A stretch of 64,000 nucleotides of DNA from a virus. Lineage: Duplodnaviria; Caudoviricetes. The notes below the pieces were generated by a model that searched no databases, had not been told where the DNA came from, and worked only from the letters and a program-made list of their open reading frames with translations. The position numbers were made by a program, and so were the translations under genes. Shown piece after piece: positions 1 to 38,408 of the stretch (positions within the stretch are counted from its first letter, which is position 1; each line of letters starts with the position of its first letter). The stretch lies in the IMG/VR virus record IMGVR_UViG_3300012984_000010. One strand, written 5' to 3'.

Positions 1-1469
1 GACGGCGCGACTCCGATAGTTTCTAGAACGGTGGTAGGGTCGAACAAGATCTCGTTGCGCGAGCCGACCGGCGGAATCAAAAGCGAAGTATCGTCATTGA
101 CGAGTTGCAACAAATCTTTATCGGTAGAGAACATGACGTTCTTCTGCCGAGCAAGTTCACGCCTAGTCAGGGTGGCGATCACATCGTCCGCCTCCTCTTC
201 CTTGTTCCAAGCCTGTCGGACACCCAACAATGGGAGGATCTTCTTCAGGACGGTCAGATCTGGAGGATTGGAGTTCCTTTGCGCCTTGTACTCAGAAAAA
301 CGTGACTTGCGACGCTTCGAGCTGCCGTCCCAAGTTACGTAGAGAGCAGCATCAGGGTACCTCTTCTTGAGGGACCCTAGACTACGAAGAAATCCTACCA
401 TAGCCCCTGTCGGACGTCCCTTACTGTCCGTAAGATTGGACAATCCAGGTGCGTAGGCACAACGGCACGCCAGATTGTGCCCATCCACGATCACATTTTC
501 GACCATATCTTTTTCCTGCTTATGTGCCAAAGCCCTAGAAATACTGTCAACATCATCCCAAAGATTGCGAATCCTTTTCAGGATCCCGTCTATCTTGGTC
601 AACTTGTCTAGCTTGGACTGCAGACTGTTGAATACAATATCACTGTAACGATCATTGTTGAACGCCACATAACTGTACAGAAGTCGGCCCCTAGATTCCC
701 AATCCCGCATCTTCTTCAAGTGCTCTGTTTTCTCGCGGATTTGCGACAACATCTTTGAGAAAGCGGGGGTATCTTTCAGAAATAGCTGTAGATCGGAGAT
801 CGCAGTTAGCTTGCGATACCAGATTTCCACATGAGCATAGGTTCGATACGTCTGGACCAAATCATCAAAAGGGGCGGTCCATCGTACTATAGGATAGGCT
901 GCCATCGCCCAATCACGGAGTGCCGTTAGACGACTATTCTCATTCGATAACGGGGCTCTCTCTTCAACGACAAGGAAGCTCCTAGGAAGCGTCACCAAAC
1001 TCTGTTTGGATCGCAGATCGATCCAGACCTGTACCTTCCCTTCCTCGGGAATCTCCTCGATGACTTTGGCCCCCATGTTTTTATAGGGGCCGGAAGTGAT
1101 GCGGACCCTATCCCCAATACCGATCCCCTGATCTACCAGGAGTCGTATTTGCTCTTTCATTTTGTCTATAGCGGAATCTTCCACTGTGGACAATTTCCTA
1201 GCTCGACCCGTCATACCAGGCAGAGCAAGGACTGACTGGATGTATTTAGTGTTCTCTAGGCGAAAGTATTCCTGAGGAGCTCTGTCAAGCCGAACGAACA
1301 CATACCCTTCCATCAGTATGTGGACGGACCGCGCATCTGCTATTTGAGTGACAGCCGCTGGAACAAACACCTCGGCTCTCTTCAACGAACGGAGGATCGC
1401 CGATTTGATAATCTCAGGATCTTCCTGATCACCCCTAGAGGTGAGCTCCAATACGACCCACGACCCCAT
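1..1469 (-). CDS. NusG-like (NGN+KOW) domain fused in frame to a PolI-type 5'-3' exonuclease/flap endonuclease; runs off the left edge
   Basis: Not in ORF track. Manual translation from ATG at 1469 (overlapping the dnaX TGA); codon-by-codon check shows no stop down to 483, and the frame reads on to the window edge. N-term MGSWVVLELT..EVFVP..EGYVFVR..GIGIGDRVRITSGPYKN (NusG NGN/KOW-like). From Met at 506: IVDGHNLACR, WDG, EYKAQR, EADDVIAT, STDKDLLQL (5'-3' exonuclease). Confidence 0.82.
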   Translation of the reverse strand, partial: MGSWVVLELTSRGDQEDPEIIKSAILRSLKRAEVFVPAAVTQIADARSVHILMEGYVFVRLDRAPQEYFRLENTKYIQSVLALPGMTGRARKLSTVEDSAIDKMKEQIRLLVDQGIGIGDRVRITSGPYKNMGAKVIEEIPEEGKVQVWIDLRSKQSLVTLPRSFLVVEERAPLSNENSRLTALRDWAMAAYPIVRWTAPFDDLVQTYRTYAHVEIWYRKLTAISDLQLFLKDTPAFSKMLSQIREKTEHLKKMRDWESRGRLLYSYVAFNNDRYSDIVFNSLQSKLDKLTKIDGILKRIRNLWDDVDSISRALAHKQEKDMVENVIVDGHNLACRCAYAPGLSNLTDSKGRPTGAMVGFLRSLGSLKKRYPDAALYVTWDGSSKRRKSRFSEYKAQRNSNPPDLTVLKKILPLLGVRQAWNKEEEADDVIATLTRRELARQKNVMFSTDKDLLQLVNDDTSLLIPPVGSRNEILFDPTTVLETIGVAP

Positions 1470-2887
1470 CAAGCCGCCCCTACGCCCAGTATTTTCAGAC
1501 GTTGTTCAAAGCTGATGCGCCACTCTTCTGCGGTTATCAAGTCGGCACGACCCTTAGGGGTGTCCTTGAAAAGGACTCGTGTATCGGCGTCGTGCGTCCC
1601 ACGAGGCATATCCTTCCGTACCGCCTTGTCATCCAAAGACGTAAGAGCCCGCGCATCGTCAGAACCCAAGTTACCCACCTTCCGATCTGAGGGGGGTGGG
1701 CTAGAAGGGCGTTTCGTCTCTGCAACCGGAGGGGTGGGCAGAACAACTTCCACCTTTGCGACAGGAGCTGCGGTTGGAGCGACTGTGGAGGCCGTTTCCT
1801 GTGCTGGAGATGCCTGAACCTGCACCAAGACTGTTTTGGTCGACGTATCTTTGGCTGGTGGCGTTCCAGACACACATGACATTACATCACATAGTAAACG
1901 GAGGCGGGTCGCCTTCGAGGTACCTAGGAAGTGCTCGGCCAGCTGCAACAGGCTATCCCCATATTGGAGTTGCAGCTTCTGGGCTAACGGTTTGTCGACG
2001 TAAGTATAATCCACGTACATGTTGTTAGCCATGCGATAGCTGGTCATGGCTGCCTCTGCCAAACCTTCGTATACTGCCTCAGGTCCAACCTGATCGCAAG
2101 TCATCTCTACGAGTTGAATAGCTGTAGAGGGAGTTCCTAACGAGAGTAAGATCTCATAATATTTCGAAACCACCGACAAATTGAGATACTCTCTCACTGA
2201 GGCGCTGGTTATTTCACCCAGTTGGGCAATCATCTCCAAGGTATTGATGATGTCGCGCACATGGCTGTGCGATGCGTCAATCACCGTCAGTACAGCATCT
2301 TCCTCAAACCCCACCCCTTCTTGGGTCAGAATCCAACACATCCTAGTGAGCAGATCCTCACGAGGGATGGAGCGAATCTTATATTCCTCACACCTAGATC
2401 GGATCGGACCTCTGATCTTTTCTGCCTCAGTTGTGCAAAAAATGCCGACAAATTTGGCTTCCTCGATGGGTTTTAGCAACACATCTTGGGAAGCGGCGCT
2501 CATCCGGTGCATTTCATCGAACAGGTAGATACGTTTTTCTGCACCTTGGATGGCGAAAGGAAGGTCTTTGACGATCTTCCTCATGTGATCGATTGTGCCG
2601 TTTGAAGCCGCGTCCGTCTCCGTAAATGCTTGGCTGGTGTCTGCGAAAACCTCTTTGCAGTTGTTGCAGACATTGCACGGCTCCCCATCCGATTGGAGAT
2701 CCTGGCAAAGCATCGCTCGGGCGAGGATACGGGCAAGGGTCGTTTTTCCTTGCCCGTGCCCGCCGCTAAAGATGTAGCTCGTGTCGAGAGCCGTACCTTT
2801 GACCAACCGCGCCTTGAGAACTAGGGCAGCACTTTCCTGGCCCAATACGTCGGAAAAACGTACTGGGCGGTACCGCTTGTCCCACAT
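1469..2887 (-). CDS. dnaX: DNA polymerase III gamma/tau clamp-loader subunit
   Basis: KRYRPVRFSDVLGQ, Walker A GGHGQGKTT, Zn module C..C..C..C, DAAS, DEMH, SRC motifs; Pro/Ala-rich linker. Confidence 0.95.
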   Translation of the reverse strand: MWDKRYRPVRFSDVLGQESAALVLKARLVKGTALDTSYIFSGGHGQGKTTLARILARAMLCQDLQSDGEPCNVCNNCKEVFADTSQAFTETDAASNGTIDHMRKIVKDLPFAIQGAEKRIYLFDEMHRMSAASQDVLLKPIEEAKFVGIFCTTEAEKIRGPIRSRCEEYKIRSIPREDLLTRMCWILTQEGVGFEEDAVLTVIDASHSHVRDIINTLEMIAQLGEITSASVREYLNLSVVSKYYEILLSLGTPSTAIQLVEMTCDQVGPEAVYEGLAEAAMTSYRMANNMYVDYTYVDKPLAQKLQLQYGDSLLQLAEHFLGTSKATRLRLLCDVMSCVSGTPPAKDTSTKTVLVQVQASPAQETASTVAPTAAPVAKVEVVLPTPPVAETKRPSSPPPSDRKVGNLGSDDARALTSLDDKAVRKDMPRGTHDADTRVLFKDTPKGRADLITAEEWRISFEQRLKILGVGAA

Positions 2888-2888
2888 A

Positions 2889-3383
2889 TCAAACCTCGGT
2901 CGTTTGCAGCAAGTCCTCTGCCAGATTCTCTTCCTCAGTCTCCACCAAACTCCCCAGGTCTAGTTTCTGGGCGATAGAGACGAATCCTGCCAGACCCTGA
3001 TGCCAAGCACCGTGGCGAGATAGGATTGAAGAGAACTCTTGAACGTCTGGCTCTCTTGTGGACCAATTCATGGTGCCGGTCTTCTCGTCTTCCTCACCAG
3101 TCAGATGCTCAAGAAGGTGGTCCACCAGAGCGGTCCTTTGAGACTCCGATAGTTCCTGCCACAGGTCGGCCGCCACCTCGATTACGAAGTCTCGTTCGAG
3201 GGCCCACTCAAAGTAACCGCTGAACTTCTTGACCTTGCCGTAAAGAGGGCGACCACCTTTATTGGAGGCCTTGTCAACGAACACGTAGCTGATCCGAGCA
3301 TCCGCCAATTCAGGGTGGTAGTTGGGGATCAGGCCCGCAGCTATTTTGGCAACGTCTTCAGCTTCACTGTATATTTTGGCCAT
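2889..3383 (-). CDS. Phage metallopeptidase-like protein (degenerate HExxH-type motif)
   Basis: HPELADARISYVF..GKVKK..DFVIEV..W..L...Q..ALVDHLLEH resembles the phage metallopeptidase family. Confidence 0.5.
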   Translation of the reverse strand: MAKIYSEAEDVAKIAAGLIPNYHPELADARISYVFVDKASNKGGRPLYGKVKKFSGYFEWALERDFVIEVAADLWQELSESQRTALVDHLLEHLTGEEDEKTGTMNWSTREPDVQEFSSILSRHGAWHQGLAGFVSIAQKLDLGSLVETEEENLAEDLLQTTEV

Positions 3384-5273: not shown

Positions 5274-5884
5274 CGGTAGACATTATGTGCATGTTCCTTG
5301 TAGGCGGGCTTGTGGGTGACCAGCAATAGGTCGAACCCCAACTTCTCGGCCACGCCTCTCAGGAACTGACTGGTGTAGTCAACATACTCATCTGATACTG
5401 CTCCCAGCGATTCATCCAAGATCAGGACCGGCCACAGCTTCAGACGCTTGATAGCCAAGACCCTCAAGATCAACGATACGACGGTAGAAGGTCCGCCACC
5501 GAAGGCTTCGAGCGGTTTACCTCTATGGGAACGATGGCTGCCCTTCAACCCTCTCCGAATGAAGAAGTCGACCGAGATTTTGTTGTGCTTTGGGCCAACC
5601 TCAGATTCAAGGCTCAGAATCTGATCAGTGAAAATGGTCTGCAACCCTTCAGTTGCAATCTTTTCCACAGATCGTACCTGCTTCTCAACCAATTGATCCA
5701 AAAGTGCGCGGAAGAGCTCCACCACCTTGGACAGGATTTCTATTTCCTGATCCAGGTGGAGTACTTCCGCTTTCTTGGCCCGCAACTCGTCCGCGGCCCT
5801 ATCTCGTAGGACCGTCAGACGAGTTGCAGAGGCTTCGACGCTCTTTACCCTTGCTTCGAAGGCATGAAGCGTGTCACTAGGCAT
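5207..5884 (-). CDS. SbcC/Rad50-like ABC ATPase, C-terminal half
   Basis: Coiled coil, then signature-like FGGG, Walker B VLILDES, H-loop LLVTH; no Walker A. Confidence 0.82.
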   Translation of the reverse strand: MPSDTLHAFEARVKSVEASATRLTVLRDRAADELRAKKAEVLHLDQEIEILSKVVELFRALLDQLVEKQVRSVEKIATEGLQTIFTDQILSLESEVGPKHNKISVDFFIRRGLKGSHRSHRGKPLEAFGGGPSTVVSLILRVLAIKRLKLWPVLILDESLGAVSDEYVDYTSQFLRGVAEKLGFDLLLVTHKPAYKEHAHNVYRCSEVFEEDGVTPFLIVKKVPS

Positions 5885-7098
5885 TCGTAGGAACCTTCTG
5901 GGGAAATAACCACTTCACCGTCAGCATTCAGGTTGAAGCGGTCGAAAGTACGGAAGAAGGCAGCCTCTTTGGGGCGAGTCTTACTCGCCGGTACGAGCGC
6001 CGTCCTAAGCTCGACAGCATACCCCTTCGCCGATTCAAACAGGCTGATGAAGTGATCCACATTGACGTTGAATTCGAACGACGGGATAGAATCCGACCCA
6101 TCCTCAAGCTTCAGACTGTCGACCCCAACAGGAGCGCTGGTGATGTCGTCCGAGCCATCAATTGCCTTGAAGTGTAGGAATCCGTCCTTGTAGATCAGAC
6201 GGATCTTATCCTGATCGGTCGACAAAACCGCTCGCATATGCTTGAGAGACTTGAGGATCAACTCCTTCGACACCATCAGGACCGACTTATCCTGGCTGGT
6301 GGCGTAGTACTGGAAACGGCTATGCTCCTTGACATGGCTGGCCCAACCGATCACAGCGCCCTCGGTGAGAGCCCCATTCTCGTCAGGGATCAACTCGATC
6401 AAGAAGTTGGAACCTTCGCCAAAGCGAACCTTGACCTCTGAACCACACTTACCCAGGAAGTTGTTGAGGTAGTTCAGATTTTCAATGTGGACCCCCAACC
6501 CCTTACCCTTCAGGGCTTCACAAGAGTAGTAGGCCGCACGGGTACCATCTGCACCAAACATGATACCGTCCCCCTTCTCCCACTCGGGACGGCTGGTATC
6601 GAAAATCTGGAGGGTGTTGAGATGTTCATCTGTCTTGACCGCCTCAGAGGGTGTGAAAGCAGCAATACTCTTCAAAGCGTCTCGAAGGATGGCCGTGTGA
6701 AAGGTCCTCTCTTCTGTGGCCTCGCTGAACTTACGGACCAGAGTGGTGAAGTTGGTTGGATCGTAGGTCGACAGATCAACCTTGGCCCCACCTTCTGTCG
6801 TGTACTTGAGCCAATGGCGTTTCTCGTCCTGACCCGACTCCAGTTCGATCCAGCCAGCCACGTACTTCAAGGAGCCAATCTTGTCACTAGGGAAGGTGAA
6901 GCCGCCCTCCCCCTCAATCGATTCCACAGCCAGCTCAGAACGGATGTACCTCACACCATCGTGAGAATGGACGTACACCTTACCACCGTTGGTGGCAATC
7001 AAGAAGGCGGTGTCGGCACTCCCGCGTAGTTTTGGCTTGACGATATTGGCAATCTCTAAGGCCTTGCTCAAGGCCTCTACTGTGGTTTTGATCTTCAT
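5845..7098 (-). CDS. dnaN: Divergent DNA polymerase III beta sliding clamp-like protein
   Basis: 417 aa; N-term L.KAL..AN.V, ADGTRAAY (cf. TDGHRLA), three-domain length; context with dnaX/holA/holB. Confidence 0.62.
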   Translation of the reverse strand: MKIKTTVEALSKALEIANIVKPKLRGSADTAFLIATNGGKVYVHSHDGVRYIRSELAVESIEGEGGFTFPSDKIGSLKYVAGWIELESGQDEKRHWLKYTTEGGAKVDLSTYDPTNFTTLVRKFSEATEERTFHTAILRDALKSIAAFTPSEAVKTDEHLNTLQIFDTSRPEWEKGDGIMFGADGTRAAYYSCEALKGKGLGVHIENLNYLNNFLGKCGSEVKVRFGEGSNFLIELIPDENGALTEGAVIGWASHVKEHSRFQYYATSQDKSVLMVSKELILKSLKHMRAVLSTDQDKIRLIYKDGFLHFKAIDGSDDITSAPVGVDSLKLEDGSDSIPSFEFNVNVDHFISLFESAKGYAVELRTALVPASKTRPKEAAFFRTFDRFNLNADGEVVISPEGSYECLVTRFMPSKQG

Positions 7099-25699: not shown

Positions 25700-27706
<2,007 letters not shown>

Positions 27707-37985: not shown

Positions 37986-38339
37986 AATACCCTGGAACCC
38001 CCGCATGGGGCTCCAGGTTCTGTAACACTGGTTTTCAACGTGTACCACACACCTCAGAATTATCCAAACTAGCCCATATTGAAAGGGGCAACCTGAGTAT
38101 CGACCCAAGTACCTAGCCTAGTTGTTTGAATCCTTCTGCCCGGCTTCTAACGGGGACTTCTAGAACCAGTTGGGGCGATAGGTTCCCCTACCGTCCTCCA
38201 CCACCTAAACCGACTTTCGTCGGTCCAAGACTTTTGCTGTTGTCAGCTTCATACACCCTAACGGTCACCAGTTGGGGTACCTTAAGGGCGGGATAGATGA
38301 AAAAGTTCATTTGTCCGTGGGCTGACAGGGGTCAATGTG

Positions 38340-38408
38340 TGCACCAGACAGGATTCGAACCTGCTCACCTCGGGTTAGCGAGATGTGGCGCCATTCCACC
38401 ACCAGTAC
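38340..38408 (-). tRNA. Atypical tRNA-like gene (6-nt anticodon loop CTAACC)
   Basis: D arm GTGG/CCAC, T arm GCAGG-TTCGAAT-CCTGT, weak acceptor stem. Confidence 0.45.

What the first reader, a model, noticed from the sequence alone, without database searches (positions are those of the whole stretch)
1..1469. NusG-like transcription factor fused in frame to a 5'-3' exonuclease
Seen: one uninterrupted reading frame joins an NGN+KOW (NusG/RfaH/Spt5-like) N-terminus, a ~150-aa helical linker and a PolI-type flap-endonuclease domain. Known: these are normally separate proteins. Inference: the nuclease could be tethered to RNA polymerase, for R-loop or primer removal, torpedo-like termination, or transcription-replication conflict resolution. 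A possible SD (CAGGA) before the internal Met at 506 could give a second, nuclease-only product.
Basis: partly seen in the sequence, partly recalled or inferred. Interest (0 to 1): 0.66.

Follow-up and report, generated by a model that had tools for sequence, protein, structure and literature searches.

The report
Huge-phage NusG-like factor fused to flap nuclease
An uncultured huge phage, like hundreds of relatives, joins a copy of the RNA-polymerase-riding factor NusG to a DNA flap nuclease in one protein; sister phages keep the NusG-like gene at the same spot but have no such nuclease at all, which points to an undescribed, testable link between phage transcription and DNA replication or repair.

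Summary
Observation confirmed. The frame lies on the minus strand (1469 down to 3) and runs off the left edge. It holds residues 1-489 of a 601-aa protein: NGN (1-112), KOW (118-170), a four-helix spacer (175-319), then a Pol I-type 5' nuclease/FEN with all catalytic carboxylates.

The window is a huge phage: 31 tRNA genes and a long replication module.

The fusion is real and conserved. There are more than 400 full-length homologues (40-71% identity) on contigs up to 529 kb and 475 matches in IMG/VR. No GenBank phage record has it, and only two MAG contigs among 185,579 species genomes do.

In the complete relatives checked it is the only FEN and the only NusG-like gene. It always sits between a DnaX-like clamp-loader gene and a gene with two sigma-70 region-4 domains.

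New here: 49 other huge-phage loci carry a stand-alone NusG-like gene in the same DnaX / NusG-like / sigma-r4 slot. The six such records checked have no Pol I-type FEN anywhere. So in this phage group the nuclease exists only as an extension of the NusG-like factor.

RNA polymerase binding and the coupling mechanism remain inferred. The internal-start idea is only weakly supported. I found no paper on this. This scan had already noted the same fusion in other genomes.

The parts
3..1469 (-). Window part (residues 1-489 of 601) of the NusG-like/FEN fusion gene. The last 112 residues (H3TH domain and terminal helix) lie beyond the left edge.
1134..1469 (-). NGN domain, residues 1-112. Carries the family hallmarks W4 (the 'WVVLEL' strand) and L52/G55/Y56/F58 ('LMEGYVFV', the counterpart of NusG 'FPGYVLV').
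960..1118 (-). KOW domain, residues 118-170, with the 'GDxVxItsGPY' motif. The loop L152-R153-S154-K155 replaces the NusG I-F-G-R loop.
513..947 (-). Four long helices, residues 175-319 (spacer or bundle). Poorly conserved except the PLS...W187 start and the last helix. No informative fold match.
504..518 (-). In-frame Met322 codon (506-504) with CAGGA (518-514) upstream: a possible but weakly supported internal start for a nuclease-only product.
3..497 (-). N-terminal half of the Pol I-type 5' nuclease (FEN), residues 325-489. D329, D381, E426, D428, D429, D450, D452 and the arch motif YKAxR (394-398) are conserved; D501 and D504 lie outside the window.
1469..2887 (-). Upstream DnaX-like clamp-loader gene. 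Its stop overlaps the fusion's start by one base. It is the invariant upstream neighbour.
5845..7098 (-). Possible sliding clamp: a weak match to a PHROG 'DNA polymerase processivity factor' over the N-terminal 73 residues only.

Best explanation
The gene encodes a two-headed protein of a huge phage that uses the host RNA polymerase. Shown: the N-terminal head is a true NusG-family NGN+KOW module. The C-terminal head is a complete Pol I-type 5' nuclease/flap endonuclease. A helical spacer of about 145 residues joins them. The fusion has been kept across a deep radiation of huge phages. Sister phages carry the NusG-like module alone in the same gene slot (DnaX-like clamp loader / NusG-like / tandem sigma-region-4 protein) and have no such nuclease at all. 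Inferred: the NGN docks on the beta' clamp helices of host RNAP, as all NGN domains do, and acts as a phage-specific NusG paralogue. It would take the place of host NusG and so keep NusG/Rho from silencing phage transcription; its KOW lacks the Phe that NusG uses for S10 and Rho. The nuclease is its cargo, carried by the elongation complex to 5' flaps, nicks and RNA:DNA hybrids where transcription meets replicating phage DNA (R-loops, transcripts used as primers after collisions). The reverse direction is a sub-variant I rate somewhat lower: the FEN, bound to flaps or nicks of replicating DNA, delivers the elongation factor to RNAP, giving replication-coupled late transcription. My odds: real conserved bifunctional fusion 0.95; NGN binds RNAP 0.65; the covalent link has a coupling function 0.45, split roughly 0.27 for nuclease-as-cargo and 0.18 for factor delivery.
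For: NusG membership by profile (E 4.5e-8 and 1.6e-9) and by fold. FEN match with all acidic residues and the YKAxR arch conserved. More than 400 full-length homologues and 475 IMG/VR matches. In 5 relatives, 4 of them at least 94% complete, the fusion is the only PF02739 match; it is also the only NusG (PF02357) match in the 4 of them where that family scored. These phages have sigma-region-2 matches but no RNAP beta' match. Their family-A DNA polymerase lies elsewhere and lacks the FEN domain. Synteny: DnaX-like upstream in 36/36 loci, sigma-r4 protein downstream in 35/37. The stand-alone NusG-like gene sits in the same slot in 49 other huge-phage loci (46/49 and 47/49 for the two neighbours) with no FEN within 4 kb. 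No PF02739 match anywhere in 6 such records of 381-619 kb. Fused and stand-alone forms separate on the NGN-KOW tree with 2 changes. The architecture is absent from GenBank phages and essentially absent from cellular genomes. The review PMC7819879 states that all NGN domains contact the clamp helices and gate loop, and that Rho silences phage and foreign genes.
Against: RNAP binding is not shown. The Pfam NGN score is only just above its cut-off, and the host is unknown. The fused clade has about one origin, so 'never free' may partly be inheritance rather than selection. An ATG at the domain border is frequent, so a free nuclease could also be made. The relative orientation of the domains is uncertain (pTM 0.5). 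A clamp-binding tail, which would have supported a T4-like bridge, was not supported. The one sigma/NGN-KOW fusion found is a singleton. Divergent phage RNAPs could escape the Pfam search.
Confidence: 0.45

Rival explanations
1. Two independent jobs in one polypeptide. The NusG-like part regulates transcription and the FEN removes Okazaki primers. The fusion only secures co-expression, or is a frozen accident, and a nuclease-only product from the internal Met may do the replication work.
For: The gene lies at the end of a replication module and is translationally coupled to the clamp-loader gene. It is the only FEN in these genomes, and the family-A polymerase lacks one. An ATG within 8 codons of the FEN start occurs in 21/30 genes against 10% background. 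The fusion has about one origin.
Against: Sister phages with the same replication genes have no FEN at all, so it is not a core replication need of the group. No fission was seen among more than 150 fused representatives down to about 30% identity. The Met is not conserved. SD-like signals are mostly explained by the codons of the linker residues.
Confidence: 0.27
2. The NGN-KOW module has been re-used for a partner other than RNA polymerase. It would target the nuclease to the replisome (clamp loader or clamp), to the ribosome, or directly to nucleic acid.
For: The invariant upstream neighbour is the DnaX-like clamp loader. The KOW loop is L-R-S-K instead of I-F-G-R, so the known S10/Rho contact is not kept. 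KOW/SH3-like folds bind many partners.
Against: The NGN hallmarks are kept. The other invariant neighbour is a sigma-region-4 protein. Every NGN known so far binds RNAP (PMC7819879).
Confidence: 0.13
3. Torpedo-like terminator. The RNAP-bound 5'-3' nuclease degrades nascent or cleaved RNA from its 5' end and dislodges RNAP, as Rat1/Xrn2 does with Spt5 on Pol II.
For: A 5'-3' nuclease sits on a NusG/Spt5-type factor. A Pol II/DSIF/Rat1 complex exists (the title of entry 8qsz).
Against: From general knowledge, Pol I-type FENs are structure-specific DNA or hybrid nucleases, not processive single-strand RNases. Nothing here tests it. A phage would more plausibly need antitermination.
Confidence: 0.05

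Closest known systems
Specialised NusG paralogues (RfaH, LoaP, UpxY, ActX/TaA) and housekeeping NusG/Spt5
   Same: NGN+KOW two-domain build, hallmark strands, encoded on a mobile element, and probably displaces host NusG on RNAP.
   Different: It carries about 430 extra residues (helical spacer plus nuclease). Its KOW has Arg where NusG has Phe165. The KOW is predicted as a beta-barrel, not an RfaH-type helical hairpin. No recruitment element is known.
Stand-alone NusG-like proteins of other huge phages (phrog_6386 'transcription antiterminator'; e.g. the gene in LR745208.1)
   Same: 30-40% identical NGN-KOW, the same L-R-S loop, and the same gene slot between DnaX-like and sigma-r4 genes.
   Different: They end after the KOW, and their genomes have no Pol I-type FEN.
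Pol I 5'-nuclease domain and stand-alone FENs (M. smegmatis Pol I 6vde, Taq, mycobacterial FenA 6c33, T5 D15, SPO1 gp32.85, Xni)
   Same: Both Pfam halves, all metal-binding carboxylates, the YKAxR arch, and even the terminal helix align.
   Different: It is attached to a transcription factor instead of a polymerase, or instead of being free.
T4 late transcription (gp45 clamp with gp33 and gp55)
   Same: Works-like only: a replication protein coupled to host RNAP, with sigma-like partners encoded nearby.
   Different: No homology. A clamp-binding peptide was looked for and not supported.
Spt5 with the Rat1/Xrn2 torpedo on Pol II
   Same: Works-like only: a 5'-3' nuclease positioned through a NusG/Spt5 factor.
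   Different: That link is non-covalent, the nuclease family differs, and it is an RNA-specific exonuclease.

Membership tests
NusG/Spt5 family | NGN domain | tested here: met
   Pfam 22.7 bits against a cut-off of 22.2. Profile against NusG 2lq8: E 4.5e-8 over positions 6-161. Foldseek probability 1.0. VIA Z 9.8 to the RfaH NGN.
NusG/Spt5 family | KOW domain following the NGN | tested here: met
   Pfam KOW is below its cut-off (16.4 against 22.3). The motif GDxVxIxxGPY is present, and VIA gives Z 11.1, rmsd 1.1 A and 27% identity to the T. maritima NusG KOW.
NusG/Spt5 family | Binding to the RNAP clamp helices and gate loop | not testable with these tools
   Only the hallmark strands are conserved (W4, L52, G55, Y56, F58).
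Housekeeping NusG | KOW loop Phe (E. coli F165) used for S10 and Rho (role recalled from the literature, not verified here) | tested here: not met
   The alignment puts the nearly invariant R153 at that position, in the loop L-R-S-K. The same holds in the stand-alone phage forms.
RfaH-type paralogues | All-helical, auto-inhibited KOW and an ops-type recruitment site | tested here: inconclusive
   AlphaFold predicts a beta-barrel KOW. Recruitment sites were not searched.
Pol I-type 5'-3' exonuclease / FEN | PF02739 plus PF01367 domains | tested here: met
   PF02739 at 108 bits. PF01367 is precomputed for P0002 and its homologues. Pol I matches at E 1.6e-41.
Pol I-type 5'-3' exonuclease / FEN | Metal-binding carboxylates and arch residues | tested here: met
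   D329, E426, D428, D429, D450, D452, D501 and D504 are invariant; D381 is at least 90% conserved; Y394, K395 and R398 are conserved.
Pol I-type 5'-3' exonuclease / FEN | Nuclease activity on 5' flaps | not testable with these tools
   Needs a biochemical assay.
T4-like clamp-coupled transcription | C-terminal clamp-binding peptide shared with other replisome proteins | tested here: inconclusive
   A tail of the form LLxTFF is conserved. However, it aligns with the last helix of bacterial Pol I 5'-nuclease domains, and no other ORF in the window carries it.

The most novel reading that the evidence does not exclude
The covalent NusG-like/FEN link is a working coupler between host RNA polymerase and replicating phage DNA. 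Either RNAP carries a nuclease that clears R-loops and transcript primers at transcription-replication encounters, or flap and nick recognition loads an antitermination factor so that late transcription depends on replication. Together with the conserved clamp-loader and sigma-r4 neighbours, this would be a new kind of transcription-replication coupling module.
Probability: 0.3. Interest if true: 0.85.

Novelty: new variant of a known kind. Interest (0 to 1): 0.62.

Why it matters
NusG/Spt5 is the only transcription factor conserved in all life, and its paralogues are known to work by swapping KOW partners. None is known to carry an enzyme. A flap nuclease that exists in a whole group of huge phages only as an appendage of a NusG-like factor would be the first covalent link between a transcription elongation factor and a replication or repair nuclease. 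It gives a concrete handle on how very large phages manage transcription on replicating templates, and how they escape NusG/Rho silencing. Both domains can be expressed and assayed without culturing the phage.

Tried and rejected
The missing C-terminus is therefore known only from the identical protein P0002, and the downstream gene only from relatives (closest: L001, 71% identity).

2. Clamp-binding tail. The conserved C-terminal LLxTFF looked like a PIP- or T4-type peptide. It aligns with the terminal helix of bacterial Pol I 5'-nuclease domains, and no other window ORF has such a tail. Not supported.

3. Sigma-70 (r2+r4)/NGN-KOW fusion P0188. No second example turned up. It is a singleton, possibly a merged gene call, and gets little weight.

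4. Internal start. Enrichment against background windows shrinks under synonymous-codon resampling. Suggestive only.

5. Helical spacer. The Atlas search gave only generic helical bundles with TM below 0.5. The Foldseek and VIA lists were filled by NGN and KOW hits.

6. RNase HI as a substitute in FEN-less phages: 0/4 fused and 1/6 unfused records have it. No complementary pattern.

7. No beta-clamp (PF00712) or Pol III alpha (PF07733) match in relatives.

8. Seven literature searches and two NusG reviews gave no description of this fusion. Only JGI's automatic name '5'-3' exonuclease/transcription antitermination factor NusG' exists.

Full report
WHAT IS THERE. The reading frame is on the minus strand, from the ATG at 1469 down to base 3, and continues beyond the left edge of the window. 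Its ATG overlaps the TGA of the upstream gene by one base (TGATG), which suggests translational coupling. The 489 residues in the window are identical to the first 489 of a 601-aa database protein, P0002, found on contigs up to 475 kb. The C-terminal H3TH half of the nuclease therefore lies outside the window.

The window is part of a huge phage. It has 31 tRNA genes between 37.9 and 63.5 kb. A long minus-strand module encodes clamp-loader subunits, ribonucleotide reductase, NAD-ligase, ThyX, a RecD2-like helicase, RecA, a RuvC-like resolvase, SbcCD-like proteins, a PD-(D/E)XK nuclease, a possible clamp, a Toprim protein and a DnaX-like protein. The fusion gene follows directly. No GenBank phage resembles the DNA.

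DOMAINS. Pfam finds the 5'-3' exonuclease N-domain strongly (4.6e-31), the NusG NGN just above its cut-off, and KOW below its cut-off. PHROGs add 'exonuclease' and 'transcription antiterminator'. A profile of 40 homologues matches T. maritima NusG across both domains (positions 6-161, E 4.5e-8) and Pol I at 1.6e-41. An N-terminal profile gives 1.6e-9 to NusG.

AlphaFold models (pLDDT 85.2 for the full length, 86.8 for residues 1-320) show the NGN at 1-112, a beta-barrel KOW at 118-170, four long helices at 175-319, and the FEN from 325. The top 30 Foldseek matches of the N-terminal model are all NusG, RfaH or Spt5. VIA gives KOW Z 11.1 (rmsd 1.1 A) and NGN Z 9.8.

The alignment keeps the NusG hallmark strands (W4; L52, G55, Y56, F58). 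It also keeps the KOW GDxVxIxxGPY motif, all FEN carboxylates (D329, D381, E426, D428, D429, D450, D452, D501, D504) and the YKAxR arch. One departure stands out: the KOW loop that is I-F-G-R in NusG is L-R-S-K here, nearly invariant.

IS THE FUSION REAL AND HOW WIDE IS IT. Of 412 database proteins that match, the 120 best listed are almost all about 600-650 aa and cover the whole query at 40-71% identity. IMG/VR holds 475 matches, on contigs up to 529 kb. No record among 50,697 GenBank phage records has the architecture. Among one genome each of 185,579 prokaryote species, only two MAG contigs match full length; all other hits are the FEN domain of bacterial Pol I.

I checked five relatives, four of them at least 94% complete. 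In all five the fusion is the only PF02739 match. It is also the only NusG (PF02357) match in the four where that family scored. These genomes show sigma-region-2 matches but no RNAP beta'. Their family-A DNA polymerase lies far away and lacks the 5'-nuclease domain.

CONTEXT. In fused loci a DnaX-like gene lies directly upstream in 36 of 36. A protein of about 210-245 aa with two sigma-70 region-4 stretches lies directly downstream in 35 of 37.

A search of 1.8 billion representative proteins with residues 1-320 also found stand-alone NGN-KOW proteins of about 165-200 aa at 30-40% identity. One sits in the 485-kb uncultured phage LR745208.1, between a DnaX-like gene (with an intein) and a sigma-r4 gene. 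Following this up in IMG/VR gave 49 loci with stand-alone genes. DnaX-like is immediately upstream in 46 of 49 and sigma-r4 immediately downstream in 47 of 49. No FEN or spacer lies within 4 kb. Six such records of 381-619 kb have no PF02739 match anywhere.

On a tree of the NGN-KOW part, fused and stand-alone forms separate with two changes. So the DnaX / NusG-like / sigma-r4 slot is the older unit. The spacer plus FEN was added in one branch. In this phage group the FEN is never found free.

HOW IT PROBABLY WORKS. Shown: a bona fide NusG-family module and a catalytically complete FEN in one conserved polypeptide, in phages that appear to use host RNAP with their own sigma factors.

Established knowledge: all NGN domains bind the clamp helices and gate loop of RNAP, and Rho (with NusG) silences foreign and phage genes (PMC7819879).

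Inference: the module is a phage NusG paralogue that occupies the NusG site on host RNAP. Its KOW does not keep the S10/Rho contact. The nuclease travels with it. Because sister phages replicate without any such FEN, the nuclease is unlikely to be a plain replisome part. That favours a job tied to the transcription complex: removal of RNA:DNA hybrids, transcript primers or flaps where transcription and replication meet. The reverse direction is also open: flap or nick recognition on replicating DNA may deliver the factor to RNAP, making late transcription depend on replication. I give the coupling idea about 0.45 overall.

RIVALS. The rivals are independent functions with mere co-expression (0.27), a module re-used for a non-RNAP partner (0.13), and a torpedo-like terminator (0.05).

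THE INTERNAL START. Met322 (506-504) and CAGGA (518-514) are there. Across 30 distinct genes, an ATG lies within 8 codons of the FEN start in 21, against 10% of control windows. An SD-like motif precedes a possible start in 18, against 4.8% of control windows. Among 116 proteins, however, Met is at the usual position in only 45. Resampling synonymous codons predicts 10.6 SD-like cases from the amino acids alone, and 0.71 for this window's Gln-Glu codons. A second product is possible but not established.

LEADS THAT FAILED. The conserved C-terminal LLxTFF is not evidence for clamp binding: it aligns with the last helix of bacterial Pol I 5'-nuclease domains, and no other window ORF has it. A sigma-70/NGN-KOW fusion (P0188) is a singleton. 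The spacer gave no informative match and could not be folded alone. RNase HI does not substitute for the FEN in the FEN-less phages.

NOVELTY. No paper in the searchable library describes the fusion. Only JGI's automatic annotation names both halves. Earlier notes of this scan report the same fusion in other huge-phage genomes. Their claims (only FEN, only NusG, sigma-r4 neighbour) were re-tested here and hold. This report adds the unfused syntenic state, the FEN's absence from those sister phages, the rejection of the clamp-tail idea, and a controlled test of the internal start.

Noticed in passing
window 37900-63546: 31 tRNA genes, all on the minus strand, including several duplicates (Leu, Met, Pro, Ala). 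One ARAGORN call at 38339-38408 has an undetermined amino acid and a two-base anticodon.
   Followed up: no
window 25700-27325 (-): Phage-encoded GroEL-like chaperonin (phrog_5725, E 2e-140).
   Followed up: no
L001:11804-12460 and 35 other loci; L073:4582-5175: The invariant downstream neighbour is a protein of about 200-245 aa with two sigma-70 region-4 stretches but no region 2. Its ends are very conserved: the N-terminus reads GYVIPVDPxELANRF and the C-terminus FNILREVKLPQW..RGGDEC. It may be a sigma-r4 mimic or appropriator.
   Followed up: partly
L073:2164-4050 (LR745208.1): The DnaX-like clamp-loader gene of this 485-kb phage carries an intein (Intein_splicing and HINT matches at residues 153-280).
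   Followed up: no
G004:C1:296443-298908: The family-A DNA polymerase match is split into two pieces within one 1422-aa open frame. This suggests an insertion (an intein?) in the polymerase domain.
   Followed up: no
L074, L075, L076 (PolA genes of relatives): The family-A polymerases (930-1017 aa) start with long acidic tails that contain DLF- or LxF-type short motifs. These could be clamp-binding candidates.
   Followed up: no
P0188 (JGI contig, 18 kb): A single 541-aa protein joins sigma-70 regions 2 and 4 to an NGN-KOW module that is 38% identical to the one here. No second example was found.
   Followed up: yes
window 2889-3383 (-): A 'putative phage metallopeptidase' gene (PF18894) sits between the Toprim and DnaX-like genes. 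An ORF of matching size occupies that position in the nine relatives whose ORFs were listed; its family was not checked there.
   Followed up: no
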